From assembly GCA_943356485.1 (NCBI GenBank), contig CALRFD010000003.1:101815-163457 (forward strand): 61,643 nt of DNA. The letters run 5' to 3'. The position numbers and the translations under genes were made by a program. The notes under the pieces were generated by a model. The model searched no databases. It had not been told where the DNA came from and saw nothing but the letters and a program-made list of their open reading frames with translations. Every line of letters starts with the position of its first letter. Positions within the stretch are counted from its first letter, which is position 1. Source of the stretch: Patescibacteria group bacterium (GTDB lineage Bacteria; Patescibacteriota; Microgenomatia; Daviesbacterales; UBA10151). Of this stretch, positions 28,669 to 48,877 are shown in pieces.

Positions 28669-29628
28669 ATGAAATATATAAATAACATACTTAAACAAAA
28701 CGTTCCTCTTTTCGTAGAGTTATTCAACGCTCATGAATATAAAGACGATTTTGGTCATAGTCCAGAATGGAACGAGGAAATGGAGCAGTGGTTATCTTTT
28801 GTGAAATCAATAAATCCAACATGGTATGAATCTAACAAGTCACGCGTCAACACTGAAAAACAAAGAGACGAGTTACTTGGAGAATACAAATCTCTGTATT
28901 ACTTCGGGAAAATATTAGGATGTAAAATAACCCAATTTGAACCAGCAGGTAACAATAACAAAAAGAACGATTACGCCTTTTACGATAAAGGCAACGAGGA
29001 GTGGTATACCGAAGTTAAATCACCGTCTTGGAGAGGTGAAGTCTCTAAAGAAATAAACAGCTCGTATTTAGATAAGCTAAAGCAAAATATAGTAATAACT
29101 GAGAGTTGGCCAGAATGTAAAGCCGAGATTACTTGTCCGAATTGCTCAAATGTTATAGAAATAAAACTGTCGAGTTTCGAATTTAAACAAGAAGAAGTAT
29201 ATGAAATTATCAAAAAAACTCTTTGTAACAAATGTAAGAAAAATATTTGGCATTTTTCTGAAAACGAACGAGCCAAATTAAAAAAAGAAAGATTATCTAA
29301 GCCACAATTTATCAATGGAGAAGGTAGATCCTACTCAGATAGAGACGCTGTTGAAGATGCTGTTAAAAAATCAGTAGCTCAATTTGCCAAAGGAAGAAAT
29401 AACTTACTATTTATTCCTCATAATATGTTTGCCGGGATTGGTACAGGCTTGTTCACGGCAATGAATGGAGGTACTACTGTAATGGAGGTTGTAAAAAAAT
29501 ATGATCCCGAAGGGATAATTACTTGTGTTTGTCTGCTAGACGTTCAATTAGATGAAAAGGGTATTAAATTTATTCCCGTATTCGTTCCTATCCTCAAACA
29601 ACCCTTAGTGAATAATGAAAAACTATGA
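28669..29628 (+). CDS. hypothetical protein, PD-(D/E)xK-like motif plus zinc ribbon
   Basis: NDYAFYD...WYTEVKS (D..ExK) and CPNC...CNKC. ATG lies 1 nt after the upstream stop. Confidence 0.35.
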   Translation: MKYINNILKQNVPLFVELFNAHEYKDDFGHSPEWNEEMEQWLSFVKSINPTWYESNKSRVNTEKQRDELLGEYKSLYYFGKILGCKITQFEPAGNNNKKNDYAFYDKGNEEWYTEVKSPSWRGEVSKEINSSYLDKLKQNIVITESWPECKAEITCPNCSNVIEIKLSSFEFKQEEVYEIIKKTLCNKCKKNIWHFSENERAKLKKERLSKPQFINGEGRSYSDRDAVEDAVKKSVAQFAKGRNNLLFIPHNMFAGIGTGLFTAMNGGTTVMEVVKKYDPEGIITCVCLLDVQLDEKGIKFIPVFVPILKQPLVNNEKL

Positions 29629-30236
29629 AAAATTGTTACTTATGCACCTCGACTAAAAACCTTACAAAAGATCATATCCCGCCAAAGAATCTGTTTCCCT
29701 CTCCGAAACCAACCAATCTCATTACAGTGTGGTGTTGTAAAAAGTGTAATGAAAAATTCAGTTTAATTGACGAATCATTTAGAGTATTCACTTCTTCCGT
29801 AATTAATCGGTCGAAGTCTGGTACGAGAATTTGGGACGAAAAAGTAATGGAATCTAGTTTTAAAAGAAGTCCAAAGCTAAAAACTGCAACCATAAAAAGT
29901 CTTGTTCCTGTAGAAACAGAAATCAATGGTATTAAAGTCCAAACCACAGGCATGACCTACCCTATCAAAAAAACAAATGATTACTTAGTTAGATTAACTA
30001 AAGGTTTCACAAGACATTTTAATCCAGAAATTGATCTTTCTCGGGCAAATTTTAAAGTTAATAATATCATCCCCAACCAGCAGATAATAGACATGCTTTA
30101 TCAAAAATTCTTCTATGTAGAAAGAGGAGACGGAGTATTCAAGATGTGGAGAATGTTTGCTAAAGATATGGGAGTTATGAGTATTTGGGTATATGTTTTT
30201 TATGATGGCTTGATGTTCACGATTGAAGTAAATTAG
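29625..30236 (+). CDS. HNH-like (CxxC..DH..CxxC) protein
   Basis: CYLCTSTKNLTKDHIPPKNLF...WCCKKCNEKF; 4-nt overlap with the upstream gene. Confidence 0.4.
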   Translation: MKNCYLCTSTKNLTKDHIPPKNLFPSPKPTNLITVWCCKKCNEKFSLIDESFRVFTSSVINRSKSGTRIWDEKVMESSFKRSPKLKTATIKSLVPVETEINGIKVQTTGMTYPIKKTNDYLVRLTKGFTRHFNPEIDLSRANFKVNNIIPNQQIIDMLYQKFFYVERGDGVFKMWRMFAKDMGVMSIWVYVFYDGLMFTIEVN

Positions 30237-30241
30237 ATACA

Positions 30242-31171
30242 ATGACTAAACTTTTTAATGAAAACTTAGGAAAAGCTTCTAATAGTAAAGAGCTGGCTAT
30301 ATTGAAAAAGAAGTTTAACCATTACGACTCCTTGTATGTAGCCGTTTCAACCATGACTACTCGCCCCGACTTTCGCGATTGGTTAGAGGTTCTTTGGAAG
30401 CAATATGAGCCACATGCGGACACTAACTTTTCGGATGAGTTTAAAAAACAATTTAATCAAAGAGCTTGGGAAATGTATCTAGGATCAACATTGTTAAATA
30501 AAGGTCATGTACTAGGAGATCATAGTGATGTAGGTCCTGACTTCAAAATTGCCTATGAGAATAAACAAATTTGGGTTGAGGCAATTGCGGTTGAAAAAGG
30601 GACTGGAAAAGACAAAGTACCCGATATTGTATACGGAAAAATGATAGATGTTCCCGAAAAGGAAATGCTCCTACGCCTCACTTCTGGCATAAAAGAAAAG
30701 TACCAAAAATATTTGTCATACTTAAGTAATAACCTCATTAATCCAAATGACCCTTTCATAATTGCAATTGATCGATCTCCGTTAGAACATTCAGATCCAC
30801 AGATACCGCTCATTTTTAAATGTCTTTTTGCAATTGGCCATCAAGTTCTTCATATTAAAAAACTAGGATCTCAAACAAAAGCCAAGACAAGGACAGAAGC
30901 GAGTAATTGGTCTAGTAGAGATAAGGTTTATAAAATAAGTGGCAGTGAAGTGGGGATGTTTGTATTTGGAGATAATAGTTTTGAAGGTGTAAGTGCAATT
31001 ATTTATTGCATACAGAATATTTTGAATAGTCCCCAAGAAATTGATCGAATGGGAGACGGTTTTATTATTGTTCATAATCCATTTGCTAAGAATCCTCTTC
31101 CAGATAATTTCTTCAAATTTGGTGAAGAATGGAAACAAGAGGGCGATCAGTTGAAGAGAATTAATACTTAG
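30242..31171 (+). CDS. hypothetical protein, possible PD-(D/E)xK fold
   Basis: GPDFKIAYENKQIWVEAIAVEKG; no other motif. Confidence 0.3.
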   Translation: MTKLFNENLGKASNSKELAILKKKFNHYDSLYVAVSTMTTRPDFRDWLEVLWKQYEPHADTNFSDEFKKQFNQRAWEMYLGSTLLNKGHVLGDHSDVGPDFKIAYENKQIWVEAIAVEKGTGKDKVPDIVYGKMIDVPEKEMLLRLTSGIKEKYQKYLSYLSNNLINPNDPFIIAIDRSPLEHSDPQIPLIFKCLFAIGHQVLHIKKLGSQTKAKTRTEASNWSSRDKVYKISGSEVGMFVFGDNSFEGVSAIIYCIQNILNSPQEIDRMGDGFIIVHNPFAKNPLPDNFFKFGEEWKQEGDQLKRINT

Positions 31172-32481: not shown

Positions 32482-34275
32482 ATGGACAATCAACTTAAAG
32501 TTGAAAATGCAGTTGCAGCAATAAGAGTTTCCTCAACACAACAAGGAACTGATGGTGATTCCCCTGAAGCCCAAAAAGAACAGATCGAACAGTTTGCCAA
32601 AAGACATAATATTAATGTTAAAAAGTTCTTTGTCTTTATGGAATCTGCCTCCAAAGAACAACAACCTATGCAGGAGGCAATTGACTACTGCAAGAATCCT
32701 AAAAACGGCATCCAACTATTTGTTATCAAATCCATAGACCGATTTACCAGAGGTGGTTCATATTCATATGACCATTTAAAAATGCAGTTGGAAAAGTGTG
32801 GTGTACAACTTGTTGATATTTACGGCATTATCAGTTCTCAAAAAGTTAATACTTTAGAACACTTGGGGGTTTCATTTAATTGGAGTGTTTACTCACCCAC
32901 TAAAAAAGCTGAGATTTTAGAAGCAGAGAGAGCCAAAGATGAGATGCGGGATATTATGTCCAGAATGATTGGAGCAGAAATACGATATGCCAGAATGGGA
33001 TATTGGGTACGGGAAGCTCCAATGGGATATCAATTAGAAAAGATAGAAACTCCTAATGGCAAACGTTGTATCTTAAAACCTCATCCGATTGAAGCACAGT
33101 GGTTTATTAAAATGTTTGAACTGCGTTGTAGAGGAACACTAAATGATCACCAAATAGTTGATGAGATTAATAAACTTGGATTTAAAGCACGGATAAAATA
33201 TGTCAGAGACCCACAAGACAGAACCAAAATAATTAAAGAGCATGGTGGAGGTAAACTGAATGTTAAAGCTTTATGGCGATATATTCAAAATCCAACATAT
33301 GCAGGAGTAAGTGGAGAAAAATGGACAGAAAATCATAGGATAAAAGCTAAGTTCGAAGGATTAGTCTCCATAGAGACTTTTAATAAAGCCAATAAAGGAA
33401 AAGTGGTAATTTCAGAAGAAGATGGACAGGTAAAAATCTACCAAAGACCAGCACCGGAGTATTTAGTTAAAAAAGGCGTTAGAAATCCAGATTTTCCCTA
33501 TAAACGAGTTGTCATGTGTCCTCATTGTGAGAAGCCACTCTTTGGTAGTGCTTCAAGAGGAAGACTTGGTAAATACTATCCTGCGTATCATTGTAACAAG
33601 CGCGGACACTATTTTAGAGTATCTAAAGAGGCTTTAGAAGGAGTTGTGGAAAGGTTTGTACAGAATATTGATCTAGCACCGGAATTTGCTCCTGAATTAA
33701 CTTCAGCAGTCATAAATGAGTGGGACAAGAGACAACTAGAAATGACTAAGGACACAGTGAATATTGACAACAAACTCGAAGAGCTAAAAACCCAAGTAAA
33801 ACTAACGGTCGATAAAATTAAGATATTAACTTCTGAAGTTGCCATTAAATATCTTGAGCAAGACTTAATTAAACTGGAACAAGAGATTGGAGATTTAGTA
33901 TTAGAGAAAGAAAAAGCAGACCAGGAAAAACCAACAGATGCACGGATTGTGATGGCCTACATCAAATACTTTCTGGAACACATGGATGAATTACTACTTT
34001 CGAACCCAGATCCAGAAAATAAAGCGGGGCATTTTGGTGTTTTATTTGATAAAGCCCCTACCTATGAAGAAATAAATTCTGGAACACCACAAATAGCTTC
34101 TTGTATCAGCCTAAATGAGATATTTAGGCAGGGTCAAGGTATGTTGGCTGGCGGTCTATCGAAAAATTCGAACGCAATTCCAATCGCATTGAGTCGAAAG
34201 ATGCCCCGCCTGCGGCGGGGCTTTTATCTGTATCCGCTCGGCCTTCGGCCTCGCTCTGGTATTTTTTGCATATAA
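32482..34275 (+). CDS. large serine recombinase (recombinase 1)
   Basis: AAIRVSSTQQ catalytic-Ser region, IKSIDRFTRGG, zinc ribbon CPHCEKP...YHCNKRGH, coiled-coil tail. The last ~43 codons lie in the 97-bp inverted repeat and terminator, so the true stop is uncertain. Confidence 0.85.
   Translation: MDNQLKVENAVAAIRVSSTQQGTDGDSPEAQKEQIEQFAKRHNINVKKFFVFMESASKEQQPMQEAIDYCKNPKNGIQLFVIKSIDRFTRGGSYSYDHLKMQLEKCGVQLVDIYGIISSQKVNTLEHLGVSFNWSVYSPTKKAEILEAERAKDEMRDIMSRMIGAEIRYARMGYWVREAPMGYQLEKIETPNGKRCILKPHPIEAQWFIKMFELRCRGTLNDHQIVDEINKLGFKARIKYVRDPQDRTKIIKEHGGGKLNVKALWRYIQNPTYAGVSGEKWTENHRIKAKFEGLVSIETFNKANKGKVVISEEDGQVKIYQRPAPEYLVKKGVRNPDFPYKRVVMCPHCEKPLFGSASRGRLGKYYPAYHCNKRGHYFRVSKEALEGVVERFVQNIDLAPEFAPELTSAVINEWDKRQLEMTKDTVNIDNKLEELKTQVKLTVDKIKILTSEVAIKYLEQDLIKLEQEIGDLVLEKEKADQEKPTDARIVMAYIKYFLEHMDELLLSNPDPENKAGHFGVLFDKAPTYEEINSGTPQIASCISLNEIFRQGQGMLAGGLSKNSNAIPIALSRKMPRLRRGFYLYPLGLRPRSGIFCI
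34147..34243. repeat. 97-bp perfect inverted repeat, arm A (partner 46584..46680)
   Basis: Direct comparison: 34147..34243 equals the reverse complement of 46584..46680. Similarity continues imperfectly for about 17 nt. Confidence 0.9.
34203..34227 (+). terminator. intrinsic terminator inside repeat arm A
   Basis: GCCCCGCC-TGC-GGCGGGGC followed by TTTTAT. Confidence 0.6.
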
Positions 34276-34314
34276 CATAAAGACAAATGCGCGCGATTTT
34301 TATATCTATCTATA

Positions 34315-34332
34315 GTCCCGCTACCGCGGGAC
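34315..34332. repeat. GTCCCG..CGGGAC hairpin, copy 1
   Basis: tAGTCCCGCTACCGCGGGACGt; compare 46530..46548 and 49258..49276. Confidence 0.5.
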
Positions 34333-34368
34333 GTTAAGACATTAAAATAATTTAAACAATTTTTTAAT

Positions 34369-34520
34369 TCACCGTTTCGGGCTTTTGTAAAGCCCTAATC
34401 ACCGTAAAACGGTGAACGGTAACGGTAGCCTTACCGTAATTTAGGCTCTAAATTAAGCTAATCACGGTTGAACCGGTGCGTAGTACCGTTGCCTTTATCC
34501 GTTAACCGTACCGTAACGGT
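34369..34520. repeat. iteron-like cluster of ACCGT/ACGGT pentamers
   Basis: 6 ACCGT + 5 ACGGT copies in 150 bp, several as dyads (TCACCGT-AAA-ACGGTGA at 34399..34415; TACCGT-A-ACGGTG at 34509..34521). Confidence 0.7.
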
Positions 34521-35155
34521 GAAAAGCAAAAAACACATAGAGAAAAACAAAATAATCCCTAGGCTTTACTAAATCCCTACATCCCACCCACCCAAATAAT
34601 TGTTGGCGGCACCCCCGCTTTGTCGCTTGCTCGTTTTTACTGCGAAGCAGGAGCTTCGCTCATTTTAAGAAACATCTTATAGAGGTAACTCGCTGCGCTG
34701 GGCGAGAGGGCTCCCTAGGGGGAGCCTCACCCATATCTTCGGCTTCGATTTAGTCTTTACAGTCTCTACCTCGCTACGGGATTAGAGTTTAGTTTTTATA
34801 ATCATGGCATACACCCTCGCTCCCTTTTTTCTGTATATTAACCTCCTGCCGTTGCGGGGGTAATTCCTTTTTGCCCCCGCCTTTTTTATCTATACCCCTG
34901 TCTGTTTCCGGCCGTTCGCTTGCTCTCAAGAGCTGCGCTTCACGAAGCGGTTCCGATGGCTCGGGCCGATGGTACAAATCATCAAGTAAATCTATCGGCC
35001 CTCGCGGAGGTCGGGCAGCACCCAATTTAGTTTTATCTAAGTTCCGAAAAATCTCCTTCTAATGGTGCTGCCCTCCTTTTTTGGGACTATATACCTTGGC
35101 TGGCGGGGGCAGGAAGCCGCCAAAATAATAATGTCGCTTTTGTTATAATGCAAAA

Positions 35156-35953
35156 ATGCCTACAGTTAACGATAAACATTATTATCAGAGTTTCGCAAAA
35201 GAATTAGATAGTAAGTTAGGTAGGATAAACTCATTAATAAATAACCACCCTGGAGAAAAAGGAAATTACCATGAGTATATCCTTAAAAATTTAATATCTA
35301 ATTACCTTCCTTCAAGATATTCTGTTAAAACAGGATTTATTTATGTAGATGATACTCATGTTAGCCCTCAAATAGATCTTATGATTATTGATGAATCTCA
35401 ATCTCCATGTTTTTTGGCTCAATATAATGATTTTGTTGTTACTTACCCTGAGGCAGTTTGTTGCGTTATAGAGGTTAAAACAACTCTTGAAATTGAGGAA
35501 TTCAAAGAATCCACAAATCTAATACAGTTAGTCAAAAATTTAAGTCAATATAATAATCCTAAGGGTGAGGTAATAGGTGGGTTAATTTTTGGCTTTGGGG
35601 GAACTAGATTTAGACCAAAAACTTTAGATAATTGGTATAAAAATAAAATTGAATGTGATTTTACGGAATATCCAGAAGCCATTTTATCTCTCAAAACAGG
35701 ATTAATATTAAAGCATCATCTAAATACTGCTTATGAAGGACACTATTTTATTACAGGGGAAAGTGATTCTTTAAAATGGAAATCATTATCAATATTTATG
35801 GCTATAATTATAAAATTTTGTGAATTAAGATCAGGTGTAGAAAGACCAGAGGGAAAGAATGCATTTGAAAGATTTTCTCTGATACGAGATTTAATGCTAT
35901 CTGCTGAGTTTTTAAGGTACAAAATCGGATTACAAACAAGAAGTAAAAAATAA
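35156..35953 (+). CDS. PD-(D/E)xK-type nuclease-like protein (DUF6602-like N-terminus)
   Basis: GEKGNYHEYILKNLISNYLPSRYSVKTGFIY...SPQIDLMIIDES...VIEVKTTL (D..ExK). Confidence 0.5.
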   Translation: MPTVNDKHYYQSFAKELDSKLGRINSLINNHPGEKGNYHEYILKNLISNYLPSRYSVKTGFIYVDDTHVSPQIDLMIIDESQSPCFLAQYNDFVVTYPEAVCCVIEVKTTLEIEEFKESTNLIQLVKNLSQYNNPKGEVIGGLIFGFGGTRFRPKTLDNWYKNKIECDFTEYPEAILSLKTGLILKHHLNTAYEGHYFITGESDSLKWKSLSIFMAIIIKFCELRSGVERPEGKNAFERFSLIRDLMLSAEFLRYKIGLQTRSKK

Positions 35954-35954
35954 T

Positions 35955-36545
35955 ATGGCCTTTTCCGAAGATCAAAAGTTACAAGTCAAAAAGAAAGCAA
36001 TGTTCCGATGTTGCCGCTGTCAGAATATTGGGATAGATATTCACCATATATTACCTCAAAAAGATAGCGGACCGGATACTTTAGATAATGCTGCTCCATT
36101 ATGTCAAAATTGTCATGATCAATTTGGGGATAATCCAATAAAAAGGAAAGAAATTAAACAAATGAGAGATCACTGGTATGAAGTAGTTGAGCAAATGTAT
36201 ACTCCGAAAACAAGTCTCGAGTTCCCTCTGAAGGAAATAAATGATAAATTGGAAAGCTTGCAAAAAAATCAACAAACAGATTTGTCTGATCTGAAGAAAA
36301 TGCTAAAAGAAATTTCATTTAAGACTATTGATAATATTACTCCGGGTACCGCAGTAGTTACTGCATCAGGTATTATGAACGTTTCAACTGCCTCAATATA
36401 TACAAAACCTTTAAATGGAGGTATTGCAATTAATCCGATGAATCAATGCCAAAAATGCGGTAAATGGTATACAAGAAATATGTCTCCTTTTGGTTATGTA
36501 ACTGTAGACAATTTGTGTGACCAATGTAAATTAGAGACGTGGTAA
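35955..36545 (+). CDS. HNH endonuclease-domain protein
   Basis: CCRCQNIGIDIHHILPQKDSGPDTLDNAAPLCQNCHDQF; start 1 nt after the upstream stop; C-terminal CxxC..CxxC. Confidence 0.7.
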   Translation: MAFSEDQKLQVKKKAMFRCCRCQNIGIDIHHILPQKDSGPDTLDNAAPLCQNCHDQFGDNPIKRKEIKQMRDHWYEVVEQMYTPKTSLEFPLKEINDKLESLQKNQQTDLSDLKKMLKEISFKTIDNITPGTAVVTASGIMNVSTASIYTKPLNGGIAINPMNQCQKCGKWYTRNMSPFGYVTVDNLCDQCKLETW

Positions 36546-36599
36546 TTTTAAAGGTGTAAAATATTTGCACTGATAGATTATTAGATTTATACTAATCTT

Positions 36600-37367
36600 A
36601 TGTCTGATGATTCGCCCAATCAGAATGAGAGTCCGGTTTCTACCCCTCCTGCGTTTGGGACTAATTTCAATGGTTCAGCAGATCCATTAAGTGAAATCCA
36701 TAGGCAAGTAGCAGAACACGAGCAAAGAGACTCTCATGGCAGGTTTGTATCTAGCCATCATGATACAAATCCTGTAAATCTACCTGTTCCACCACAACCT
36801 ACACCTATTCAACCAAATCCCCCAAGTATCCCTAATTACCCCAATCTTCCTAATACTCCTAATCCTTCTGCTCCTACTATTCCACCTGAACCACAAGTAA
36901 TCCATAATAATAACTCAACTACTTCTTCAGATGATGATCCTCTCTTTGAAGCCAAAATCAATAATCCTTTTACTAAATTTTTTAACTGGCTCAAGAAGTT
37001 AATTAAAAATGAAGGAATAAATATTAAGATTAAACCGTTAACTGCAATTGCAATGGTTGTAGCATTAACCGGAGGTGGAGGATTAATTGGTGGAGTTGTT
37101 GGTTATGCTTTCCCTCATTCCTCACCGATACTACACAGAGAAGTAGCTTATCAAGGCTCTATTCAAAAAACTTCCAGTGGGATCTTCTTAATCCTGCCAA
37201 ACTTAGACAAATATACTTTAAAACCTAAAATAAATTCTCCTGTGGATTTTCAGAACTTAAATTCTGGACAAGCGTTTGTCAAAGGTAATTTAACCCCAGA
37301 GAATTTTGTAATTGAGGTAAGTGAAGTTATTCCATTAAATAATGGAAATGTTCAACCTAACCTTTAA
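36600..37367 (+). CDS. proline-rich membrane-anchored hypothetical protein
   Basis: PVPPQPTPIQPNPPSIPNYPNLPNTPNPSAP low-complexity region, then one TM. Confidence 0.4.
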   Translation: MSDDSPNQNESPVSTPPAFGTNFNGSADPLSEIHRQVAEHEQRDSHGRFVSSHHDTNPVNLPVPPQPTPIQPNPPSIPNYPNLPNTPNPSAPTIPPEPQVIHNNNSTTSSDDDPLFEAKINNPFTKFFNWLKKLIKNEGINIKIKPLTAIAMVVALTGGGGLIGGVVGYAFPHSSPILHREVAYQGSIQKTSSGIFLILPNLDKYTLKPKINSPVDFQNLNSGQAFVKGNLTPENFVIEVSEVIPLNNGNVQPNL

Positions 37368-37917
37368 TCAAATTAGATTAAACAGGAATCAAGGTTTTAC
37401 CCTTGTTGAGCTGCTTGTGGTCATTTCTATTATTGGAGTTTTAGCCGCAGTAATTACCTTCGTGATTAATCCCTTAGAATTGCTCAGAAGAAGCAGGGAT
37501 TCAAACAGGCTTAGGGATTTAGATAGTTTATCCCAAGCGATCAATGTGGCTTTGCAAGAAGGATCTTTATCTTCCAGTTATATAGCTACTATATTATGTA
37601 AAGAATCAGGAGAATACCCATGTGTGGGAAAATCTGATGCTGAAACTAGAATGACTGATGGTACTGGCTGGGTTAAAGTAAATTTTGCTTCCCAGAAAGC
37701 ATTAAGTATTCCTACTCTTCCAATAGATCCCACCAATAATAATGAATACCATTACACATATTGTGCAGATAATGACTCGTTTGAATTAGATACTACTTTA
37801 GAATCAGATAAATTTAGAGCTCAATCTGCTATGGACGGAGGAGATACAGCAGATTATTATGAAACAGGATCAAATCTAAACCTGATAGCTAATTCAGGTG
37901 GAAGTTGTGAATATTAA
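37348..37917 (+). CDS. type IV pilin-like / pseudopilin protein
   Basis: Prepilin N-terminal motif GFTLVELLVVISIIGVLAAV. Confidence 0.7.
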   Translation: MFNLTFNQIRLNRNQGFTLVELLVVISIIGVLAAVITFVINPLELLRRSRDSNRLRDLDSLSQAINVALQEGSLSSSYIATILCKESGEYPCVGKSDAETRMTDGTGWVKVNFASQKALSIPTLPIDPTNNNEYHYTYCADNDSFELDTTLESDKFRAQSAMDGGDTADYYETGSNLNLIANSGGSCEY

Positions 37918-38195
37918 GATAGTTTTCTTCTTTTATTTAGTTCTTTAACAATATCTCTTGGTGTTATTTTGAAAAAACTCATCATAACTAGCAAGTGAAA
38001 AAATAAATCTGCAATCTCTGAAATAAGCCTTTCTTTACTTTCATTTTTTGCAGCAATAATTACCTCTGTTGATTCCTCACCAACTTTTTGAATTATTCTA
38101 TCTCCTCCTCTTTTAAACAAAGAGGCAACATAAGAATTTTCTGGCATTTTCTTTTTACGATCTTCGATTATTTTATAAAGTTCTTCTAAATTCAT
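37914..38195 (-). CDS. hisE: phosphoribosyl-ATP pyrophosphatase
   Basis: SYVASLF..G...I.QKVGEESTEVIIAA...SEIADLFFHLLVM. Confidence 0.8.
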   Translation of the reverse strand: MNLEELYKIIEDRKKKMPENSYVASLFKRGGDRIIQKVGEESTEVIIAAKNESKERLISEIADLFFHLLVMMSFFKITPRDIVKELNKRRKLS

Positions 38196-38506
38196 ATTAC
38201 CTCCTGATAAAAACAAGCTTTATTTCCAGTGTGACAAACATTTTTTCCAACAAGTTCTACCTTTATTAAAATTGCATCTTTGTCGCAATCAACAAAAATA
38301 TTTTTTACTTTTAATTTATTTCCTGATGTTTCACCTTTCATCCAAAGTTTTCTTCTACTTCTGCTCCAAAAATATACCAATCCTGTTTTTAAGGTTTCTT
38401 GCAAAGCTTCCTTATTTATATAGCCAAGCATTAGAACCTCATTACTCTTATAATCTTGTATAACAGCAGGGATAAGTCCATTACTTTTTTCAAAGTTGAT
38501 TTTCAT
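38192..38506 (-). CDS. hisI: phosphoribosyl-AMP cyclohydrolase
   Basis: LIPAVIQD...SRSRRKLWMKGETSGN...DCDKDAILIKV..G..CHTG. Confidence 0.9.
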   Translation of the reverse strand: MKINFEKSNGLIPAVIQDYKSNEVLMLGYINKEALQETLKTGLVYFWSRSRRKLWMKGETSGNKLKVKNIFVDCDKDAILIKVELVGKNVCHTGNKACFYQEVI

Positions 38507-38509
38507 AAT

Positions 38510-39265
38510 TTAACTCCTCATTGGAATATTTTTTCTTCTTAAATAATTTTTTAAATCTCCAATAGTTAAATCACCAAAGTGGAACAAAGAAGCAGCTAGT
38601 GCTGCATCAGCAGATCCTTTATTAAAAACATCAAGAAAATCCTCAAGTTTTCCAGCTCCACCGGATGCAATTACTGGCACACTCACAACTTTAGAAATAT
38701 TTTTAGTTAGTTCCAGATCATACCCATTCTTGGTACCATCTCTGTCCATACTAGTTAATAAAATTTCACCAGCACCTTTTCTTACCCCTTCTTTAGCCCA
38801 CTCAATTGCATCTAATCCAGTTGCAGTTCTTCCTCCATTAATAAATACTTCCCAACCTTTCTCATTTTTCTTTGCATCAATTGCTAAAACAATACACTGG
38901 TTACCAAATATCTTTGCTGCTCCTTTAATAAGTTCAGGATTTTTAACAGCACTTGTATTTAAAGACACCTTATCTGCACCTGCCAGCAGAATATTTTGTA
39001 TATCTTCAATAGATCTAATTCCACCGCCGACAGTAAATGGAATAAATACCTGTTTTGCTACTTCTTTGACCACATCAACCATAGTCTCTCTATTATCAGA
39101 TGAAGCAGTAATATCTAGGAATACTAACTCATCAGCTCCTTGACTGTTATAAAACTTAGCCAACTCTACTGGATCTCCAGCATCTTTTATATTTATAAAA
39201 TTAACACCTTTCACGACCTTTCCTTTATCAACATCAAGACAAGGTATTATTCTTTTAGTTAACAT
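38510..39265 (-). CDS. hisF: imidazole glycerol phosphate synthase cyclase subunit
   Basis: [40 protein letters not shown]. Confidence 0.95.
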
Positions 39266-39965
39266 TTGTTACCTCCTCTAAATTTATTCTTCCTTCATAT
39301 AAAGCTTTACCTACTATAACTCCCTCAACACCAATATCTTTTAGCTTTTGAATATCGGAAACATTAGATATTCCACCAGCAATAATTACAGGAATATTTA
39401 TATTTTCTAATAAGCTTTCAACTGATTCGTAATTTGGAGAAGTGAGAGTTCCATCTTTTGTTACGTCTGTATAAATAAATCTTTTGACTCCCAGCTTTTC
39501 CAAGCGTTTAGCGGTTTCGATAAGATTTTTATCTGTACTATCTAACCAGCCATTTTTCATCAATACTCCATTTTTAGCATCCAGACTTACTATTATTTGT
39601 GTAGGATATTGACTGATTAATTCTTTAAATAATTCTTCATCCTCAAATATAATTGTTCCAAGAACAACCTTAGATACCCCTAATCCTAGAAGTTTATCAA
39701 TAGATTCTTTATTTCTAATACCTCCACCTATTTGTATAGGGATAGTGACCGTTTGCAAGATATCTTTTATAACTTCGATATTATCTAATGCTCCATTTTT
39801 AGCACCATCTAAATCTACTATGTGGACAATCTTAGCACCCTTTGACTGCCAAACTTTAGCAACTTTGACAGGATTATCGTTATATATTTTTTCCTTATTA
39901 AAATCACCTTGAATTAGACGGACACATTTACCGTTTTTAATATCAATAGCTGGGATAATTAACAT
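39255..39965 (-). CDS. hisA: ProFAR isomerase
   Basis: [42 protein letters not shown]. Confidence 0.9.
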
Positions 39966-40558
39966 ATTGCCTCCCAAAAGTTTTTTAATAACTCAAATCC
40001 AATCTTTCCACTTTTTTCTGGGTGGAATTGGACACCAAAAATATTATCTTTTTCTAAAACACTACAAAACTTTTCTCCGTATTCTGTTATTCCTTTAGTT
40101 GTCTCTTTATCCTTAGGATCACAATAGTAAGAATTAACAAAATAGAAATAGCTATTATTAATTCCTTTAAGTAGCTTTGAGTTATTACTTATCTTTACCT
40201 GATTCCATCCTATTTCTGGAACCTTCAGTTCAGTATTAAACTTTTTAACCTTCCCCTTTATTATATTTAGACAATCTACATCTCCTTCCTCACTAAAAGA
40301 AAATAGAAGTTGCATTCCTAAGCAAATACCAAGGATTGGTTTATTAGCTTTAACCTGATTAACAATTAATTTATCTAAACTTAGCTTTTTAAGATTAATC
40401 ATTCCCTGACCAGCAGCACCAACTCCTGGTAAAATCAATGCCTTAGCTCTTTTGATTTCTTCAGGATCATTCGAAATTGTCACAGGAATACCTAGCTTAG
40501 TTAAAGCATTTTTAACACTAGTTAGATTTCCTAATCCATAATCAATTACCACTATCAT
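39959..40558 (-). CDS. hisH: imidazole glycerol phosphate synthase glutaminase subunit
   Basis: VIDYGLGNL.SV, LPGVGA, GICLGMQLL, GVQFHPEKS. Confidence 0.95.
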   Translation of the reverse strand: MIVVIDYGLGNLTSVKNALTKLGIPVTISNDPEEIKRAKALILPGVGAAGQGMINLKKLSLDKLIVNQVKANKPILGICLGMQLLFSFSEEGDVDCLNIIKGKVKKFNTELKVPEIGWNQVKISNNSKLLKGINNSYFYFVNSYYCDPKDKETTKGITEYGEKFCSVLEKDNIFGVQFHPEKSGKIGFELLKNFWEAIC

Positions 40559-41145
40559 AATTTCCCTTTCGTTGAAGGTATCTGATTTATTGCTCTTTGA
40601 TCCAACTCACAAGCCATACGAATTGCCCGAGAAACTGCCTTAAAAATTGCTTCAATTTTGTGGTGCTCATTCTCTCCATATTCAACTTTTATAAATAAAT
40701 TAACTTTGGCATTTTGAGCAAAAGCATCCCAAAAGTGTTTTACAAGTTCAGTAGATAAATCTCCAACTTCTTCCCGAACAAAAGGGCACTCAAATCTAAA
40801 TGAGTATCTACCTGCAAAATCTATAACAACTGTAGCTAATGCTTCATCCATCGGCAGGATAAAAAAACCATAACGATTAATCCCTTTTTTATCTCCCAAG
40901 GCTTTTGCAAAAGTTTCACCTAAAACTATTCCTATATCTTCCACTGTGTGATGTTCATCAATATAAGTGTCCCCAGTTGCTTTAACAGTTAAGTCAAACA
41001 ATCCACCTTTGGCAAAAAGATCCAACATGTGGTTTAAAAATCCAACCGACGTCTCAATTTTTCTTTCTCCCACGCCATCAACATTTAATGAAATCTCTAC
41101 ATTAGTTTCATTAGTTTTTCTTTTTATTATTGCTTTACGATTCAT
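40555..41145 (-). CDS. hisB: imidazoleglycerol-phosphate dehydratase
   Basis: RKTNETNVEISLNVDG, DEHHTVEDIGIVLG, ENEHHKIEAIFKA. Confidence 0.95.
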   Translation of the reverse strand: MNRKAIIKRKTNETNVEISLNVDGVGERKIETSVGFLNHMLDLFAKGGLFDLTVKATGDTYIDEHHTVEDIGIVLGETFAKALGDKKGINRYGFFILPMDEALATVVIDFAGRYSFRFECPFVREEVGDLSTELVKHFWDAFAQNAKVNLFIKVEYGENEHHKIEAIFKAVSRAIRMACELDQRAINQIPSTKGKL

Positions 41146-42695: not shown

Positions 42696-42699
42696 ATTT

Positions 42700-43986: not shown

Positions 43987-43994
43987 ATTTCTCC

Positions 43995-44867
43995 TTAAAT
44001 AATTTTCTCTATTGGCAAAACAATTATTCCTTGTGCACCAATATTTTTTAGTTTTTCTATTGTTTCCCAAAAGACCTGTTCTTTGATAACTGTTTGAATT
44101 GATATCCAACCTGTTTTTGCAAGTGGAGCAATGGTTGGAGATTTAAGACCAGGGACTATTTTCTTTATTTTAGGTAGTAAGTCTTTGGGAGCATTCATCA
44201 TTACATATTTGTAATCCTTAGCTGATAACACACCTTTAAATCTGGTGAGCAACTTTTCCACTAAAATTTTTCTTCCGTTTAATAAACTCTTTTCATTTGC
44301 TACTAAAACCGCTTCAGATTCGTATATTTTGGTAAGCATTCTTAAATCATTCAAAGCAAGAGTACTTCCTGTTGAAGTAAGGTCAACTATAGCTTCTGCT
44401 ACTCCTAGAGCTGGAGCAATTTCTACCGAACCACTAATTTTAACTACTTCTATTGATATGTTATTCTCTTTGAAAAACTTTTTTGTAGACTCTGGATACG
44501 AGGTCGCAATAGTCTTACCTTTTAGATCAGATATATCTTTAACCTCTGAATCCTTAGGCACTGCTACCATTAGGGAGCAGAAACCATATCTTAGATTAAG
44601 AAGTTTCTTAACCTTAGGTCTTTCTTCGTTTAGTATATTTTGACCTAAAATACCCAGGTCCACGGTTCCAGATGCTACATAGTCAGGAATATCATCGTCT
44701 CTGACATATAAAATTTCTAAGGGAAAATTTCTGCATACAGAAAATAGCCTTTGTTTGTAACTTTCAAACTCAAGACCTGATTTCCTTAGGAATTCAAGCG
44801 TCTCTTCAGTTAAACGCCCTCCTTTTTGTATTGCTAGTTTTAATTTTTTACTATCTAAATTTGCCAT
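43995..44867 (-). CDS. hisG: ATP phosphoribosyltransferase, long form
   Basis: LKLAIQKGGRL, RDDDIPDYV..G..DLGI.G, DLTSTGSTL, plus a C-terminal regulatory domain. Confidence 0.9.
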   Translation of the reverse strand: MANLDSKKLKLAIQKGGRLTEETLEFLRKSGLEFESYKQRLFSVCRNFPLEILYVRDDDIPDYVASGTVDLGILGQNILNEERPKVKKLLNLRYGFCSLMVAVPKDSEVKDISDLKGKTIATSYPESTKKFFKENNISIEVVKISGSVEIAPALGVAEAIVDLTSTGSTLALNDLRMLTKIYESEAVLVANEKSLLNGRKILVEKLLTRFKGVLSAKDYKYVMMNAPKDLLPKIKKIVPGLKSPTIAPLAKTGWISIQTVIKEQVFWETIEKLKNIGAQGIIVLPIEKII

Positions 44868-44889
44868 ATTTTTCCTTTCAATCTTTGTG

Positions 44890-44961
44890 GGTGGCTAAGG
44901 AGAATCGAACTCCCGCAACTGATTCCACAAACCAGTGTTCTGCCACTGAACTATAGCCACC
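44890..44961 (-). tRNA. tRNA-His (GUG) with G-1 and C73
   Basis: Hand fold: G-1, acceptor GTGGCTA/TAGCCAC, anticodon loop TTGTGGA, T-loop TTCGATT. Ends 22 nt upstream of the hisG ATG. Confidence 0.9.
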
Positions 44962-44965
44962 ATTT

Positions 44966-45225: not shown

Positions 45226-45231
45226 AAAAGT

Positions 45232-45260: not shown

Positions 45261-45283
45261 ATATGTTATAGGATATCTTAATA

Positions 45284-46393: not shown

Positions 46394-46529
46394 ATTAATA
46401 AAAAGTATATAACTTTACTTAATAAACCACAAGATTATATTTTGATATAAATTGCCTCTCTTGAAACAATATCTTTAAGCAGTATAGTAAGGGGGCGAAA
46501 AGTTCTTTAAAATTTTTGCGTTTTTTGTA

Positions 46530-46548
46530 GTCCCGATTATATCGGGAC
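46530..46548. repeat. GTCCCG..CGGGAC hairpin, copy 2
   Basis: tAGTCCCGATTATATCGGGACGt. Confidence 0.5.
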
Positions 46549-46583
46549 GTGTTCGAGCCGACAGTTTAGAGCGGTAGGCCTCC

Positions 46584-46680
46584 GGCCGAGCGGATACAGA
46601 TAAAAGCCCCGCCGCAGGCGGGGCATCTTTCGACTCAATGCGATTGGAATTGCGTTCGAATTTTTCGATAGACCGCCAGC
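46584..46680. repeat. 97-bp perfect inverted repeat, arm B (partner 34147..34243)
   Basis: Reverse complement identical to 34147..34243. Confidence 0.9.
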
Positions 46681-46760
46681 AAATCTGGATCGGAGGGGCG
46701 CGGAACGTCAGAAATCGCGGGGAGGGGGTACGTTGCGAGGGTTTTCCAGCCTCGGTTTTG
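46677..46760. repeat. 84-bp perfect inverted repeat, left arm (partner 48311..48394)
   Basis: Reverse complement identical to 48311..48394. Shares the 4 nt CAGC/GCTG with arm B. Confidence 0.9.
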
Positions 46761-46885
46761 GAAGTTGTCGGGAATAAAAAGAAACAAAAAACGGACTGGT
46801 ACGCAAAAATTTAGCTCACGTTGTTCGCAGAAAAGAACTTTTCCTTTTAAGAGGAAAACCAAAAAATATAATTAAATAAACTGCC

Positions 46886-48424
46886 ATGAAATATATAGCA
46901 TATTGCAGAAAATCTACAGATGAACCAGACAGACAGATCCTCTCCATTGAGGCTCAAATTGCAGAAGTTAAGGAGTTTGCAGAGAGAGAAGGTTTAGAAG
47001 TAGTTAAATTTATTACCGAGAGTAAAACTGCTAAAGAACCTGGAAGAGAAAAATTTACAGAACTTATAAGGATGTTGGAAGCAGGAGAGGCTAATGGAAT
47101 CTTGAGTTGGCATCCGGATAGATTAGCTAGAAACTCGATAGACGGAGGAAGAATTATTTACCTTTTAGATACAGGTAAGTTACTTGACTTAAAGTTTCCT
47201 CAATTTTGGTTTGATAATACTCCTCAGGGAAAGTTCATGCTAAATATTGCTTTTGGGCAAAGTAAATATTATGTAGACAATTTATCTGAAAATGTTAAAA
47301 GGGGTAACAGACAAAAACTTCGTAGAGGTGAGTGGCCTAATCACGCACCATTTGGGTACATTAATGACTCGAGGACAAAACTTATTCAGATAGATAGGAA
47401 ACGAGCTCCGTTTTTAGTTAAGGCTTTTGAAATGTTTTCAACTGGTGGATACACCTATGTAGACATCATAAATTATTTTACTAAGAATAAAGTATTTAAT
47501 ACTTCTAATGGAGATAGAATTTTCCATAAAGATAAGATGAAAAGAATATTAGGAGATCCTTTCTATACAGGATTGATGAGATTTAATGGTGAACTATATG
47601 AGGGGAAGCATAAATCTTTAATAACTAAAAAGCTATTTGACCAAGTTCAGGAAATAATTAAATCCAGGAATAGAAAACAAAAAGTTATTAAACAGGAGTT
47701 TGAATTTTTAGGACTAATGATGTGTAAAGAATGTGGTGGAGCAATAACTGCTGAAAAACATACAAGATTTTATCCCAGAACTAATAATACTGTAGATTTC
47801 ATTTACTACAGATGCTCTAAGAAAAAAGGCTACTGTTCACAAAGGTACGCTAAAAAAGATGATATAGAGCAACAGATTAAGGATGCTGTGTCAAAAGTTT
47901 CTTTAACCGAGTTTGCCGCCAATAAATTCCTAGAATGGGCCAATAAAGATGCTGAGAAAGAAAAGACAAAAGTATCTGGGTTAATAGAACAGTTAAAAAG
48001 AGAACTCAAAGAAACCGAAGAAAAATTAGATAGATTACTTGAAGGCTACCTAGACAAAGTAATTGATTCCCAAGAATATCAACATAAAAAGAACGTCCTA
48101 ATACAAGAAAAACTATCATTACAGGGAAGAATTAAGGAAATTTCAGAGCGAGGCACTGAATGGCTCGAACCACTCAAAAACTTCATTGGTAGCGCACTTT
48201 CGTGCGCAAAAATCGCGCGCGCAAAAAATACCAACCATGATTTGGCAATCATGGTAAAAACTGTCGGCTCGAACTTCTTTTTATTCAATCAACAACTTCA
48301 AGTGGAATATCAAAACCGAGGCTGGAAAACCCTCGCAACGTACCCCCTCCCCGCGATTTCTGACGTTCCGCGCCCCTCCGATCCAGATTTGCTGCGGGAC
48401 ATGGATTCGAACCATGATAGATAG
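46886..48424 (+). CDS. large serine recombinase (recombinase 2)
   Basis: AYCRKSTDEPDRQ..SIEAQ, WHPDRLARN, zinc ribbon CKECGG...YYRCSKKKGYC, coiled coil. The last ~38 codons lie in the IR and tRNA-Gln, so the true stop is uncertain. Confidence 0.85.
   Translation: MKYIAYCRKSTDEPDRQILSIEAQIAEVKEFAEREGLEVVKFITESKTAKEPGREKFTELIRMLEAGEANGILSWHPDRLARNSIDGGRIIYLLDTGKLLDLKFPQFWFDNTPQGKFMLNIAFGQSKYYVDNLSENVKRGNRQKLRRGEWPNHAPFGYINDSRTKLIQIDRKRAPFLVKAFEMFSTGGYTYVDIINYFTKNKVFNTSNGDRIFHKDKMKRILGDPFYTGLMRFNGELYEGKHKSLITKKLFDQVQEIIKSRNRKQKVIKQEFEFLGLMMCKECGGAITAEKHTRFYPRTNNTVDFIYYRCSKKKGYCSQRYAKKDDIEQQIKDAVSKVSLTEFAANKFLEWANKDAEKEKTKVSGLIEQLKRELKETEEKLDRLLEGYLDKVIDSQEYQHKKNVLIQEKLSLQGRIKEISERGTEWLEPLKNFIGSALSCAKIARAKNTNHDLAIMVKTVGSNFFLFNQQLQVEYQNRGWKTLATYPLPAISDVPRPSDPDLLRDMDSNHDR
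48311..48394. repeat. 84-bp perfect inverted repeat, right arm
   Basis: Identical to the reverse complement of 46677..46760. Overlaps the tRNA-Gln 3' end by 3 nt. Confidence 0.9.
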
Positions 48425-48462
48425 CTCCAAAGGCTATCGTCCTGCCATTAGACGATCCCGCA
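48392..48462 (-). tRNA. tRNA-Gln (UUG)
   Basis: Hand fold: U1-A72 acceptor TGCGGGA/TCCCGCA, G73, anticodon loop CTTTGGA, T-arm CATGG-TTCGAAT-CCATG. Confidence 0.85.
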
Positions 48463-48831: not shown

Positions 48832-48877
48832 GAACTGGACTTTTTTCGAGTGTAAGTGATAAAATTCCTTTTGTGCT

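What the first reader, a model, noticed from the sequence alone, without database searches (positions are those of the whole stretch)
34276..35155. 0.9-kb GC-rich, hairpin-dense non-coding tract with an ACCGT/ACGGT iteron cluster
No credible ORF covers this tract in a genome that is otherwise densely coding and AT-rich. Positions 34371..34520 hold 11 copies of ACCGT/ACGGT, against about 0.3 expected by chance. Several form dyads (TCACCGT-AAA-ACGGTGA and TACCGT-A-ACGGTG), like iterons, operators or centromere sites. Positions 34560..35110 hold a series of perfect stems: GCGAAGC-AGGA-GCTTCGC, GGCTCCC-TA-GGGGAGCC, GCGGGGG..CCCCCGC+T6, CGCTTC-AC-GAAGCG, GGGCAGCACC..GGTGCTGCCC+T6, and TGGCGG..CCGCCA. 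This is compatible with one or two structured RNAs on the + strand. The tract lies between a serine recombinase and a PD-(D/E)xK + HNH pair, and near a replication-relaxation-like gene. Candidate roles are a plasmid or ICE origin/partition site, recombination-directionality arm sites, or a large ncRNA associated with the adjacent nucleases. An 11-mer TTGGCTGGCGG occurs at both edges (34144 and 35095).
Basis: seen in the sequence. Interest (0 to 1): 0.7.

Follow-up and report, generated by a model that had tools for sequence, protein, structure and literature searches.

The report
Non-coding end of a tRNA-targeting island
The GC-rich tract is the non-coding end of a 14-kb mobile island inserted at a tRNA-Gln gene; it holds a conserved tRNA-mimicking attachment module, a one-off cluster of likely protein-binding motifs, and a roughly 550-base folded element found in only one other place.

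Summary
The tract is non-coding and is the most GC-rich part of the window. It holds 11 of the window's 45 ACCGT sites within 150 nt, and it folds far better than shuffled sequence.

It is not one object. It is the left end of a 14.2-kb island (34151-48390) inserted between an older island's serine recombinase gene and tRNA-Gln. A relative (L081) shows the unoccupied state.

It has three layers:
- **Module X plus arm "alpha" (34151-34335).** This module is widespread in Patescibacteria metagenomes (24 loci). Its outer end mimics a tRNA 3' end and always lies at recombinase or tRNA junctions. An inverted copy sits at 46568-46683.
- **ACCGT array (34366-34523).** It is unique to this island and shows 30-32-nt phasing. 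It most likely binds a protein.
- **Element Y (34575-35125).** It is not in Rfam. Its one homologue (L125) occupies the same position, with 8-9 compensatory base-pair changes and no reading frame. It is probably a structured RNA, but the strand is unresolved.

The repeated 11-mer is not conserved. Six loci encoding homologues of the adjacent nuclease (four distinct homologues) lack Y, so no link to that nuclease is supported. Interest is moderate. Y may be a new RNA class, but this rests on two sequences.

The parts
32482..34150 (+). Conserved coding part of large serine recombinase rec1, from the older island E1. The ORF formally runs on to 34275 through non-coding module X.
   Evidence: Pfam Resolvase and Recombinase domains. 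Homologues align only to about aa 555, and their tails are translated tRNA genes. DNA homology to L081 ends at 34150.
34144..34154 (.). Attachment junction TTGGCTGGCGG. This is the left boundary of island E2, with the shared core CTG at 34148-34150.
   Evidence: L081 reads GTATGTTGG|CTGCGGGAC(tRNA-Gln). The window reads GTATGTTGG|CTGGCGGTCTA on the left and CCAGATTTG|CTGCGGGAC(tRNA-Gln) at 48388-48398.
34151..34257 (.). Module X, copy 1. It comprises a tRNA-3'-end mimic (CTGGCGG..TCGAAAAATTCGAAC), a GC hairpin at 34203-34221 and the GGCC-TTC-GGCC hairpin.
   Evidence: It is a 95-100% inverted copy of 46568-46683. 24 metagenome loci carry the module.
34258..34335 (.). Inner arm 'alpha': TCGCTCT..TTTTTTGCA..GCGCGCGATTTTT, then the hairpin GTCCCGC-TACC-GCGGGAC at 34316-34333.
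   Evidence: About 13 X copies carry the same arm. The hairpin keeps its position while the stem sequence changes.
34366..34523 (.). ACCGT/ACGGT array of 11 pentamers. The 10-mer WAWTCACSGT occurs at 34366, 34396 and 34459, with 1-mismatch copies at 34433(-) and 34516(-). AT-rich spacers flank the array.
   Evidence: No other alpha-arm locus has it.
34575..35125 (.). Element Y, a GC-rich folded non-coding element. Blocks conserved with L125 are 34560-34621, 34699-34767, 34819-35018 and 35112-35135. Window-specific insertions are 34622-34698 and 34768-34818.
   Evidence: Alignment to L125 and its block coordinates. 8-9 compensatory pairs. No conserved frame. No Rfam match.
35096..35121 (.). Y's terminal hairpin TGGCGG-GGGCAGGAAG-CCGCCA. 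It contains the second copy of the 11-mer.
   Evidence: L125 reads AAACAGGGCGGGGGCGGCGGAAGCCGCC here, so the hairpin is kept but the 11-mer is not.
35125..35154 (-). Sigma-70-like promoter TTTGCA-18-TATTAT pointing into Y. It overlaps the -10-like TATAAT of the DUF6602 gene on the + strand.
   Evidence: This is a consensus match only.
35156..36545 (+). First cargo genes of E2: DUF6602 (NucC-like PD-(D/E)xK nuclease, 35156-35953) and an HNH endonuclease (35955-36545).
46490..46683 (-). Module X copy 2 (46568-46683, inverted) with inner arm 'beta' (46490-46567).
46677..48394 (+). rec2 cassette: large serine recombinase gene 46886-48424 flanked by perfect 84-bp inverted repeats (46677-46760 and 48311-48394).
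   Evidence: L110, L114 and L115 show the same layout.
48391..48462 (-). tRNA-Gln(UUG), the integration target and right boundary of E2.
   Evidence: It matches the L081 tRNA-Gln, and the DUF378 gene beyond it is syntenic.

Best explanation
The tract is the non-coding left terminus of a 14.2-kb genomic island, E2 (34151-48390), in a Patescibacteria chromosome.

**How E2 arrived.** E2 inserted at the 3' end of tRNA-Gln(UUG). That site was already occupied by an older island, E1, whose serine recombinase gene rec1 had abutted the tRNA. The insertion left rec1 joined to E2's terminal module X. E2's own recombinase, rec2, now abuts the tRNA.

**The three layers**
1. **X plus arm alpha (34151-34335).** This is the element-borne arm of the attachment site. 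Its outer end copies the acceptor and T-arm part of the target tRNA gene. The same recombinase half-site recognition can therefore serve both partners. This step is inferred.
2. **ACCGT array (34366-34523).** This island-specific array of about five phased sites, flanked by AT-rich spacers, most likely binds a dimeric DNA-binding protein. That protein would control the island end, by regulation, maintenance or excision. This is inferred, at about 50%.
3. **Y (34575-35125).** This conserved, heavily base-paired element is most likely a structured non-coding RNA carried as cargo at the island end (about 50%). I lean weakly to the minus strand, with transcription from the promoter-like site at 35154-35125 towards X. 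Its role is unknown. A function in the island's own life cycle is a guess.

**Shown:** the boundaries, the family membership of X, the homology and covariation of Y, and the statistics of the array.

**Inferred:** recombination activity, protein binding, transcription and strand.
For: **Integration family**
- About 70 of 80 loci encoding rec1 homologues have a complete tRNA gene on the opposite strand overlapping the recombinase 3' end.
- The homologues' protein tails are translated tRNA genes.

**Empty versus occupied site**
- L081 (rec1 90% identical) reads rec1|tRNA-Gln|..DUF378. The window reads rec1|X...rec2|tRNA-Gln|DUF378.
- DNA homology stops at 34150, and a CTG core is shared at both junctions.
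- The 35-48 kb stretch has lower GC (0.29-0.35) than the host flanks.

**Module X**
- A pattern scan found 24 metagenome loci, against about 2 by my own estimate.
- Every copy continues into one of two conserved inner arms. The arm hairpins keep their position while their stems change.
- The architecture rec 3' end|X-alpha..cargo..beta-X|~200 nt|rec2-type gene|tRNA recurs in L110, L112, L114, L115, L118 and L123.
- The X terminus follows the target tRNA type. It is CTGGCGG..TTCGAAC here and resembles tRNA-Gln. It is TGGTGAACG..TTCGAAC elsewhere and resembles tRNA-Glu.

**Array**
- 11 of the window's 45 ACCGT sites lie in 150 nt.
- The 10-mers are spaced 30 and 63 nt apart.

**Y**
- L125 has the same order: host gene|X-alpha|dyad|Y|promoter|small nuclease-like gene.
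- The conserved blocks are 80-83% identical.
- There are 8-9 double compensatory changes in four hairpins and one long-range helix.
- There is no shared frame and no codon periodicity.

**Assemblies**
- Three assemblies agree.
Against: - Y rests on only two sequences. RNAalifold structures are biased towards pairs that are kept.
- With single-sequence MFE structures, many pairs break in the other sequence (16-20 one-sided breaks).
- The strand evidence conflicts. Terminator-like sites are all on the + strand. The promoter-like site, the slightly lower MFE and more wobble-preserved changes favour the - strand.
- Covariation would look the same for structured single-stranded DNA.
- The ACCGT array has no counterpart in any related element, and no candidate binding protein was identified.
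- E2 has an odd layout. A second X copy lies 1.7 kb inside its right end, and an inverted 84-bp copy of the rec2 3' end lies upstream of rec2. Simple attP x attB integration does not explain this.
- Large serine recombinases are not known to use an attL-type site as target (my own knowledge).
Confidence: 0.6

Rival explanations
1. The whole tract is one ~980-nt minus-strand RNA. It would start at the promoter near 35125 and end in a tRNA-like 3' end (..CCGCCAGCCA at 34144). The 5' UGGCGG would pair with the 3' CCGCCA like an acceptor stem.
For: - A promoter-like site lies on the - strand.
- The two 11-mer copies lie at the two ends.
- The minus-strand fold has z = -6.0.
- X ends in a T-loop-like GTTCGAAT plus CCA when read on that strand.
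Against: - The three parts have independent distributions. X occurs without Y in more than 20 loci, Y occurs without the ACCGT array in L125, and the array occurs nowhere else.
- The 11-mer is not conserved in L125.
- ARAGORN and Rfam find no tRNA or tmRNA here.
Confidence: 0.08
2. The tract is a replication origin or partition site of the excised, plasmid-like island: iterons, an AT-rich unwinding stretch and a GC-rich region.
For: - The motif array is phased at ~31 nt and flanked by AT-rich spacers.
- A Replic_Relax gene lies 2 kb away.
- The layout recalls iteron origins such as RK2 oriV (my own knowledge).
Against: - The Replic_Relax gene belongs to the older island E1 and is conserved with rec1 in L081.
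- No Rep, Par or relaxase gene was found in E2.
- No DnaA box with up to 1 mismatch lies in the tract.
- The array is absent from every related element, while Y is conserved without it.
Confidence: 0.15
3. Y is a partner RNA (guide, antitoxin or regulator) of the nuclease genes immediately downstream.
For: - Both known copies of Y are followed by a PD-(D/E)xK-type gene. The window has NucC-like DUF6602 plus HNH. L125 has a small protein with a D..EIEIK motif.
- Both islands carry defence-like genes.
Against: - Six loci encoding four DUF6602 homologues (58-69% identity) have no Y and mostly no upstream gap.
- The only homologue of the L125 protein also has no Y.
- Each nuclease gene has its own promoter between Y and its start codon.
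- There is no HEARO match. The ToxI hit scores 20 bits against a gathering threshold of 50 and is a single copy.
Confidence: 0.1
4. Y acts as folded single-stranded DNA, for example a single-strand origin or transfer origin used when the island moves, not as RNA.
For: - The hairpins score similarly on both strands.
- Loops are conserved while stems vary.
- Its position at an element end is compatible with this role.
Against: - No HUH Rep or relaxase was found in E2.
- Serine-recombinase elements move as double-stranded circles (my own knowledge).
- The elements with the smallest X-to-X spans (about 1.2-1.8 kb; L110, L115) lack Y.
Confidence: 0.12
5. The tract is decayed coding or tRNA DNA, or an assembly artefact.
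For: - Some relatives have tRNA arrays downstream of the recombinase (L015).
- Metagenome assemblies can be chimeric.
Against: - The tract has no tRNA-like hit even at E up to 10.
- It has no similarity to the window's own tRNAs.
- There is no conserved frame, and the changes are compensatory.
- The sequence is identical in three assemblies.
Confidence: 0.03

Closest known systems
Cargo-carrying islands that pile up at tRNA genes, such as the tycheposons of Prochlorococcus (bioRxiv 10.1101/2020.12.28.424599)
   Same: - Elements integrate site-specifically at the 3' side of tRNA genes.
- They stack up next to the tRNA.
- They carry niche or defence cargo.
- A minority use large serine recombinases.
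- The window shows two stacked islands at tRNA-Gln.
   Different: - Most tycheposons use tyrosine recombinases and carry partial-tRNA repeats.
- Here both recombinases are large serine recombinases.
- The element end is a conserved ~100-nt tRNA-mimic module (X), present twice in inverted orientation.
- The recombinase gene itself is flanked by 84-134-bp inverted repeats.
attP/attB sites of phage large serine integrases such as phiC31 and Bxb1 (my own knowledge)
   Same: - The site lies at the end of the recombinase gene.
- Only a very short core is shared at the junctions (CTG here).
- The element arm resembles the target arm.
   Different: - Classical sites are ~40-50 bp with no long conserved flanking module. 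Here the arm continues into ~190 nt of conserved hairpins with two alternative inner arms.
- Activity and the crossover dinucleotide were not tested.
Iteron-type plasmid origins and centromere repeat arrays (my own knowledge)
   Same: A short motif is repeated in both orientations, phased at about three helical turns, next to AT-rich DNA.
   Different: - No cognate Rep or Par gene is present.
- No DnaA box is present.
- Units are only 10 nt and are not regular enough for Tandem Repeats Finder.
- The array is not conserved in related elements.
Large structured RNAs of mobile elements (GOLLD, ROOL, HEARO) in Rfam
   Same: Y is several hundred nucleotides long, GC-rich relative to its host, located on a mobile element near tRNA genes, and has many hairpins with conserved loops.
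   Different: - No match to any of the 4227 Rfam models, in either copy.
- Only two copies are known.
- Transcription is not shown.

Membership tests
Attachment-site arm of a tRNA-integrating large serine recombinase element | It lies directly at the 3' end of a large serine recombinase gene, or at the far end of the element. | tested here: met
   rec1|X in the window and L037, rec2-type|X in L115/L118, and host gene|X in L125.
Attachment-site arm of a tRNA-integrating large serine recombinase element | Occupied and empty sites differ by exactly the element, with a short shared core. | tested here: met
   Comparing L081 with the window gives a 14.2-kb insert between TTGG|CTG and TTTG|CTG.
Attachment-site arm of a tRNA-integrating large serine recombinase element | Recombination by the cognate enzyme at a defined central dinucleotide. 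| not testable with these tools
   This needs an in vitro or in vivo recombination assay.
Iteron replication origin or partition site | Regular direct repeats with an adjacent cognate Rep or Par gene. | tested here: not met
   Tandem Repeats Finder reports only a 6-nt micro-repeat. E2 has no Rep or Par gene.
Iteron replication origin or partition site | DnaA box(es) and an AT-rich unwinding element. | tested here: inconclusive
   AT-rich spacers are present. No DnaA box with up to 1 mismatch lies in 34144-35155.
Known Rfam RNA families (GOLLD, ROOL, OLE, HEARO, introns, tmRNA, RNase P and others) | Covariance-model score at or near the gathering threshold. | tested here: not met
   The best hits score 22 bits or less against thresholds of 34-110, with E of 0.4 or more, and differ between the two Y copies.
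tRNA or tmRNA gene | Cloverleaf or tRNA-like domain detectable by ARAGORN or the Rfam tRNA model. | tested here: not met
   ARAGORN and the Rfam scans report none in 33900-35400. X only mimics the 3' part.
Structured non-coding RNA (generic) | Base pairs maintained by compensatory substitutions, with no coding signal. | tested here: inconclusive
   There are 8-9 compensatory pairs and no shared frame. Only two sequences are available, and single-sequence structures are partly broken in the other.
Structured non-coding RNA (generic) | A transcript of defined strand and ends. | not testable with these tools
   No expression data are available. Promoter and terminator scans disagree on the strand.
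Type III toxin-antitoxin RNA (ToxI-like) | Tandem 34-40-nt RNA repeats directly upstream of a ToxN/AbiQ-type toxin. | tested here: not met
   There is a single weak ToxI hit (20.4 bits against 50), no tandem array, and the downstream gene is NucC-like.

The most novel reading that the evidence does not exclude
Two linked readings remain open.

1. Y is the first seen member of a new class of large (~400-550 nt) structured RNAs carried at the ends of Patescibacteria islands.
2. X-bounded cargo segments and inverted-repeat-flanked serine-recombinase cassettes form a modular mobile system that has not been described. In it, a tRNA-3'-end mimic placed tail-to-tail with a real tRNA creates a palindromic landing site for an IS-like recombinase cassette. 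L129 shows this junction without a cassette.
Probability: 0.3. Interest if true: 0.75.

Novelty: new variant of a known kind. Interest (0 to 1): 0.55.

Why it matters
Patescibacteria have tiny genomes and few described mobile elements.

- **A usable marker.** The tract exposes a recurring architecture at their tRNA genes. Serine-recombinase cassettes with long inverted repeats combine with cargo segments bounded by a conserved tRNA-mimic module. Module X could be used to map island boundaries in these genomes.
- **Metabolic cargo.** The island here appears to carry a whole histidine operon plus tRNA-His and defence-type nucleases. If so, core metabolism is moving horizontally in this group.
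- **A possible new RNA.** If Y is transcribed, it adds a large structured RNA of unknown role to the short list found on mobile elements.
- **Caveat.** Most of the recombination biology is an ordinary variation on tRNA-targeted integration.

Tried and rejected
- **Rfam.** Gathering and E-value scans of the window, the tract, the second X locus and L125 gave nothing meaningful.
- **blastn.** The tract had no match against plasmids or phages.
- **tRNA-array relic idea.** Rejected. There are no tRNA-like hits and no similarity to the window's own tRNAs.
- **The 20-mer GCTCGGCCTTCGGCCTCGCT as a marker for X.** Rejected. It also occurs in 23 unrelated viral contigs.
- **The second 11-mer as a relic att site or a truncated tRNA-Gln.** Rejected. 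The stretch aligns to Y's terminal hairpin in L125, where the 11-mer is absent.
- **A third TTGGCTGCGGG site at 53402.** It lies inside glmS and is a chance match.
- **Searches for more Y copies.** All came back empty:
  - DUF6602 homologues
  - the L125 small protein
  - recombinase tails
  - four viral-contig scans, two with X-derived and two with Y-derived patterns
  - a covariance model run over 0.88 Mb of held loci
- **MAFFT/RNAalifold on 20 X copies.** This misaligned the length-variable GC hairpin and gave no usable covariation count. That hairpin's conservation is reported only from direct reading.
- **Literature.** Three searches found no description of this element family.
Full report
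**1. The observation**

The tract is real. GC rises to 0.44-0.50 between about 34050 and 35100, in a window that is otherwise 0.29-0.42. No ORF longer than 78 aa lies in it.

ACCGT or its complement occurs 45 times in 61.6 kb, and 11 of those sites fall in 34371-34520.

The tract folds much better than dinucleotide shuffles, with z = -4.7 on the + strand and -6.0 on the - strand. The 11-mer TTGGCTGGCGG occurs at 34144 and 35096. Two other public assemblies carry the tract with 100% identity. One of those contigs breaks exactly at a repeat boundary inside it.

**2. What the recombinase next door does**

Homologues of the 597-aa recombinase (rec1) are abundant in Patescibacteria. They align only up to about residue 555. 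Their C-terminal tails read like '..LAAxxGFEPR..LPLDDSP', which is a translated tRNA gene.

I fetched 80 genomic loci and found a complete tRNA gene in about 70 of them. It lies on the opposite strand and overlaps the 3' end of the recombinase gene. It is tRNA-Gln in the closest relatives and Glu, Lys, Ser, Arg or Asn in others. So this family integrates at tRNA 3' ends.

The true coding sequence of rec1 ends near 34150. The non-coding tract therefore begins at 34151, not 34276.

**3. An empty-site comparison defines an island**

The closest relative is L081 (rec1 90% identical). It reads ..GTATGTTGG|CTGCGGGAC.. straight into tRNA-Gln(UUG), followed by a DUF378 gene.

The window has the same tRNA-Gln and the DUF378 gene at 48391-48742. 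There the tRNA abuts a second, unrelated large serine recombinase, rec2 (46886-48424), which has Resolvase, Recombinase and Zn_ribbon_recom domains.

DNA homology between the window and L081 stops exactly at 34150. The junctions are:
- left: TTGG|CTG|GCGGTCTA
- right: TTTG|CTG|CGGGAC

Relative to L081, about 14.24 kb (34151-48390) is therefore inserted between rec1 and the tRNA, with a shared CTG core at each end. This insert, which I call E2, has a lower GC content (0.29-0.35) than the host flanks. The tract under study is E2's left end.

**4. Module X**

Window 34144-34257 recurs, inverted, at 46568-46683. Identity is 100% over about 104 nt.

A two-block pattern taken from this module found 24 metagenome loci, against about 2 by my own estimate. 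All copies share four features:
- an outer terminus that looks like the reverse complement of a tRNA 3' end
- the palindrome TTCGAA-A(3-4)-TTCGAA
- a long GC hairpin whose sequence differs between subfamilies
- a GGCC-TTC-GGCC hairpin

The terminus tracks the target tRNA. Here it is CTGGCGG..TTCGAAC, against tRNA-Gln's CTGCGGG..TTCGAAC. Elsewhere it is TGGTGAACG.., against tRNA-Glu's TGGTGACCC...

Inside the module, each copy continues into one of two conserved arms:
- **'alpha'** (..TTTTTTGCA..GCGCGCGATTTTT.. plus a hairpin). Copy 1 has it, at 34258-34335.
- **'beta'** (..GTCGGCTCGAAC, a hairpin, then AAAAACGCAAAAATTTTAAAGAAC). Copy 2 has it.

In both arms the hairpin keeps its place while its stem sequence changes completely between loci.

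The layout recurs: recombinase 3' end|X-alpha .. cargo .. beta-X|~200 nt|rec2-type gene|tRNA. The rec2-type genes are themselves flanked by inverted repeats. These are 84 bp and perfect in the window, and 100-134 bp elsewhere.

In L129 a beta-X terminus lies tail-to-tail with tRNA-Glu, separated by 10 nt and with no recombinase between. Among 82 rec1-family loci, only L037 has X. X therefore travels with rec2-type elements.

I read X as the element-borne arm of the attachment site. This is an inference. The extra inverted X copy and the repeats around rec2 are not explained by simple integration.

**5. The ACCGT array**

Positions 34366-34523 hold the 11 pentamers. The longer motif WAWTCACSGT occurs exactly at 34366, 34396 and 34459, giving spacings of 30 and 63 nt. 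One-mismatch copies lie on the other strand at 34433 and 34516.

AT-rich spacers lie on both sides. No other alpha-arm locus has any comparable enrichment. At the same place L125 has a single dyad, TTAGAACA-N4-TGTTCTAA.

There is no regular tandem repeat, no DnaA box, and no Rep, Par or relaxase gene in E2.

The array is most simply a set of binding sites for a dimeric DNA-binding protein specific to this island. The same motifs could equally build a closed multi-hairpin fold.

**6. Element Y**

The GC-rich half (34575-35125) has one homologue among about 1.2 Mb of related loci. This is L125, a 2.4-kb groundwater contig.

The order there is host gene|X-alpha|dyad|Y|consensus promoter|small PD-(D/E)xK-like gene.

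The conserved blocks are 80-83% identical. The window has two private insertions, 34622-34698 and 34768-34818.

No reading frame is shared, and mismatches are spread evenly over codon positions. The differences cluster in stems and are compensated:
- GGCTCCC/GGGAGCC becomes GTCCCGC/GCGGGAC around a kept loop.
- GGCCGAT/ATCGGCC becomes GCCCGT/ACGGGT around the kept loop AAATCATYAAGTAAATCT.
- GGGCAGCACC/GGTGCTGCCC becomes GGGCTGCC/GGCAGCCC.
- A long-range helix (34867-34881 with 35102-35116) shows a T-A to C-G switch.

RNAalifold counts 8 compensated pairs on the + strand and 9 on the - strand.

The evidence is limited. There are only two sequences. When a single-sequence fold is transferred to the other sequence, 16-20 pairs break.

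The strand is unresolved:
- **For the + strand:** all five terminator-like sites are on it.
- **For the - strand:** the only promoter-like site (35154-35125), slightly lower folding energies in both copies, and more wobble-preserved single changes (13 of 29 against 7 of 27).

Neither copy of Y matches any Rfam family.

**7. The 11-mer**

The first copy is the attachment junction. The second lies in Y's terminal hairpin (TGGCGG..CCGCCA). In L125 that hairpin is kept but reads AAACAGGGCGG... The repeat therefore does not mark the ends of an insert. It may be coincidence, or a local echo of the tRNA-Gln-like acceptor sequence.

**8. The adjacent nucleases**

DUF6602 is a NucC-like PD-(D/E)xK nuclease. 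Six loci encoding four homologues (58-69% identity) have no Y and mostly no upstream gap. The only homologue of the L125 protein also lacks Y. A functional pairing between Y and the nucleases is not supported. It remains true that both known Y copies precede a nuclease-type gene.

**9. Verdict**

The tract is composite. It is the non-coding terminus of a tRNA-Gln-targeted island. It is made of a widespread attachment-arm module, a private motif array and a rare, conserved folded element.

The closest described systems are cargo islands that stack at tRNA genes, such as tycheposons. The details that look new are:
- serine recombinases throughout
- the tRNA-mimic module used as an inverted terminal repeat
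- recombinase cassettes with long inverted repeats
- element Y

I rate the finding a new variant of a known kind, of moderate interest. The RNA claim still needs more sequences or expression data.

Noticed in passing
window 46677-46760 and 48311-48394: Perfect 84-bp inverted repeats flank the rec2 gene, so its 3' end is duplicated upstream in reverse. L110, L114 and L115 show the same pattern with 100-134-nt repeats. It looks like an IS-like serine-recombinase cassette.
   Followed up: partly
L129 1960-2010: A beta-X terminus ends in ..TTCACCA and lies tail-to-tail with tRNA-Glu (TGGTGAC..), 10 nt apart, with no recombinase between. This may be an unoccupied palindromic landing site.
   Followed up: partly
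window 38192-44960: A histidine biosynthesis operon (hisG to hisF, PRA-CH/PRA-PH) and tRNA-His lie inside the inserted, lower-GC island E2. This is unusual cargo for a Patescibacteria element.
   Followed up: partly
window 10900-11026 and 51801-51927: A 127-nt direct repeat, 98% identical, in two intergenic regions. By eye it has terminal inverted repeats and looks MITE-like.
   Followed up: no
window 48877-49491: tRNA-Phe and tRNA-Gly are on the + strand with a GIY-YIG ORF between them. In L015 and L081 the Gly-Phe pair is on the same strand as tRNA-Gln. This suggests a local inversion or insertion.
   Followed up: no
window 34236-34255; L083-L105: The 20-mer GCTCGGCCTTCGGCCTCGCT from module X also occurs in 23 viral contigs in several unrelated contexts, more often than I would expect by chance. 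It may be a generally favoured stable hairpin.
   Followed up: partly
window 34637-34663; L120 999-1025: The hairpin CTGCGAAGCAGGAGCTTCGCTCAT lies in a window-specific insertion in Y. It recurs, 96% identical, as an insertion inside module X of L120.
   Followed up: no
window 29625-31171 and 35156-36545: Both stacked islands carry defence-type genes. E1 has HNH_5 plus a PD-T7-5-like protein. E2 has a NucC-like DUF6602 protein plus HNH.
   Followed up: partly
window 34151-34275; database proteins P0004-P0116: Gene callers extend these recombinases through tRNA genes or module X. Many database entries therefore carry spurious C-terminal tails such as GFEPR..LPLDDSP.
   Followed up: yes
window 56128-56150 and 56442-56464: An exact 23-nt repeat of one end of tRNA-Leu(CAG) lies about 300 nt away. 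It may be the remnant of another integration.
   Followed up: no
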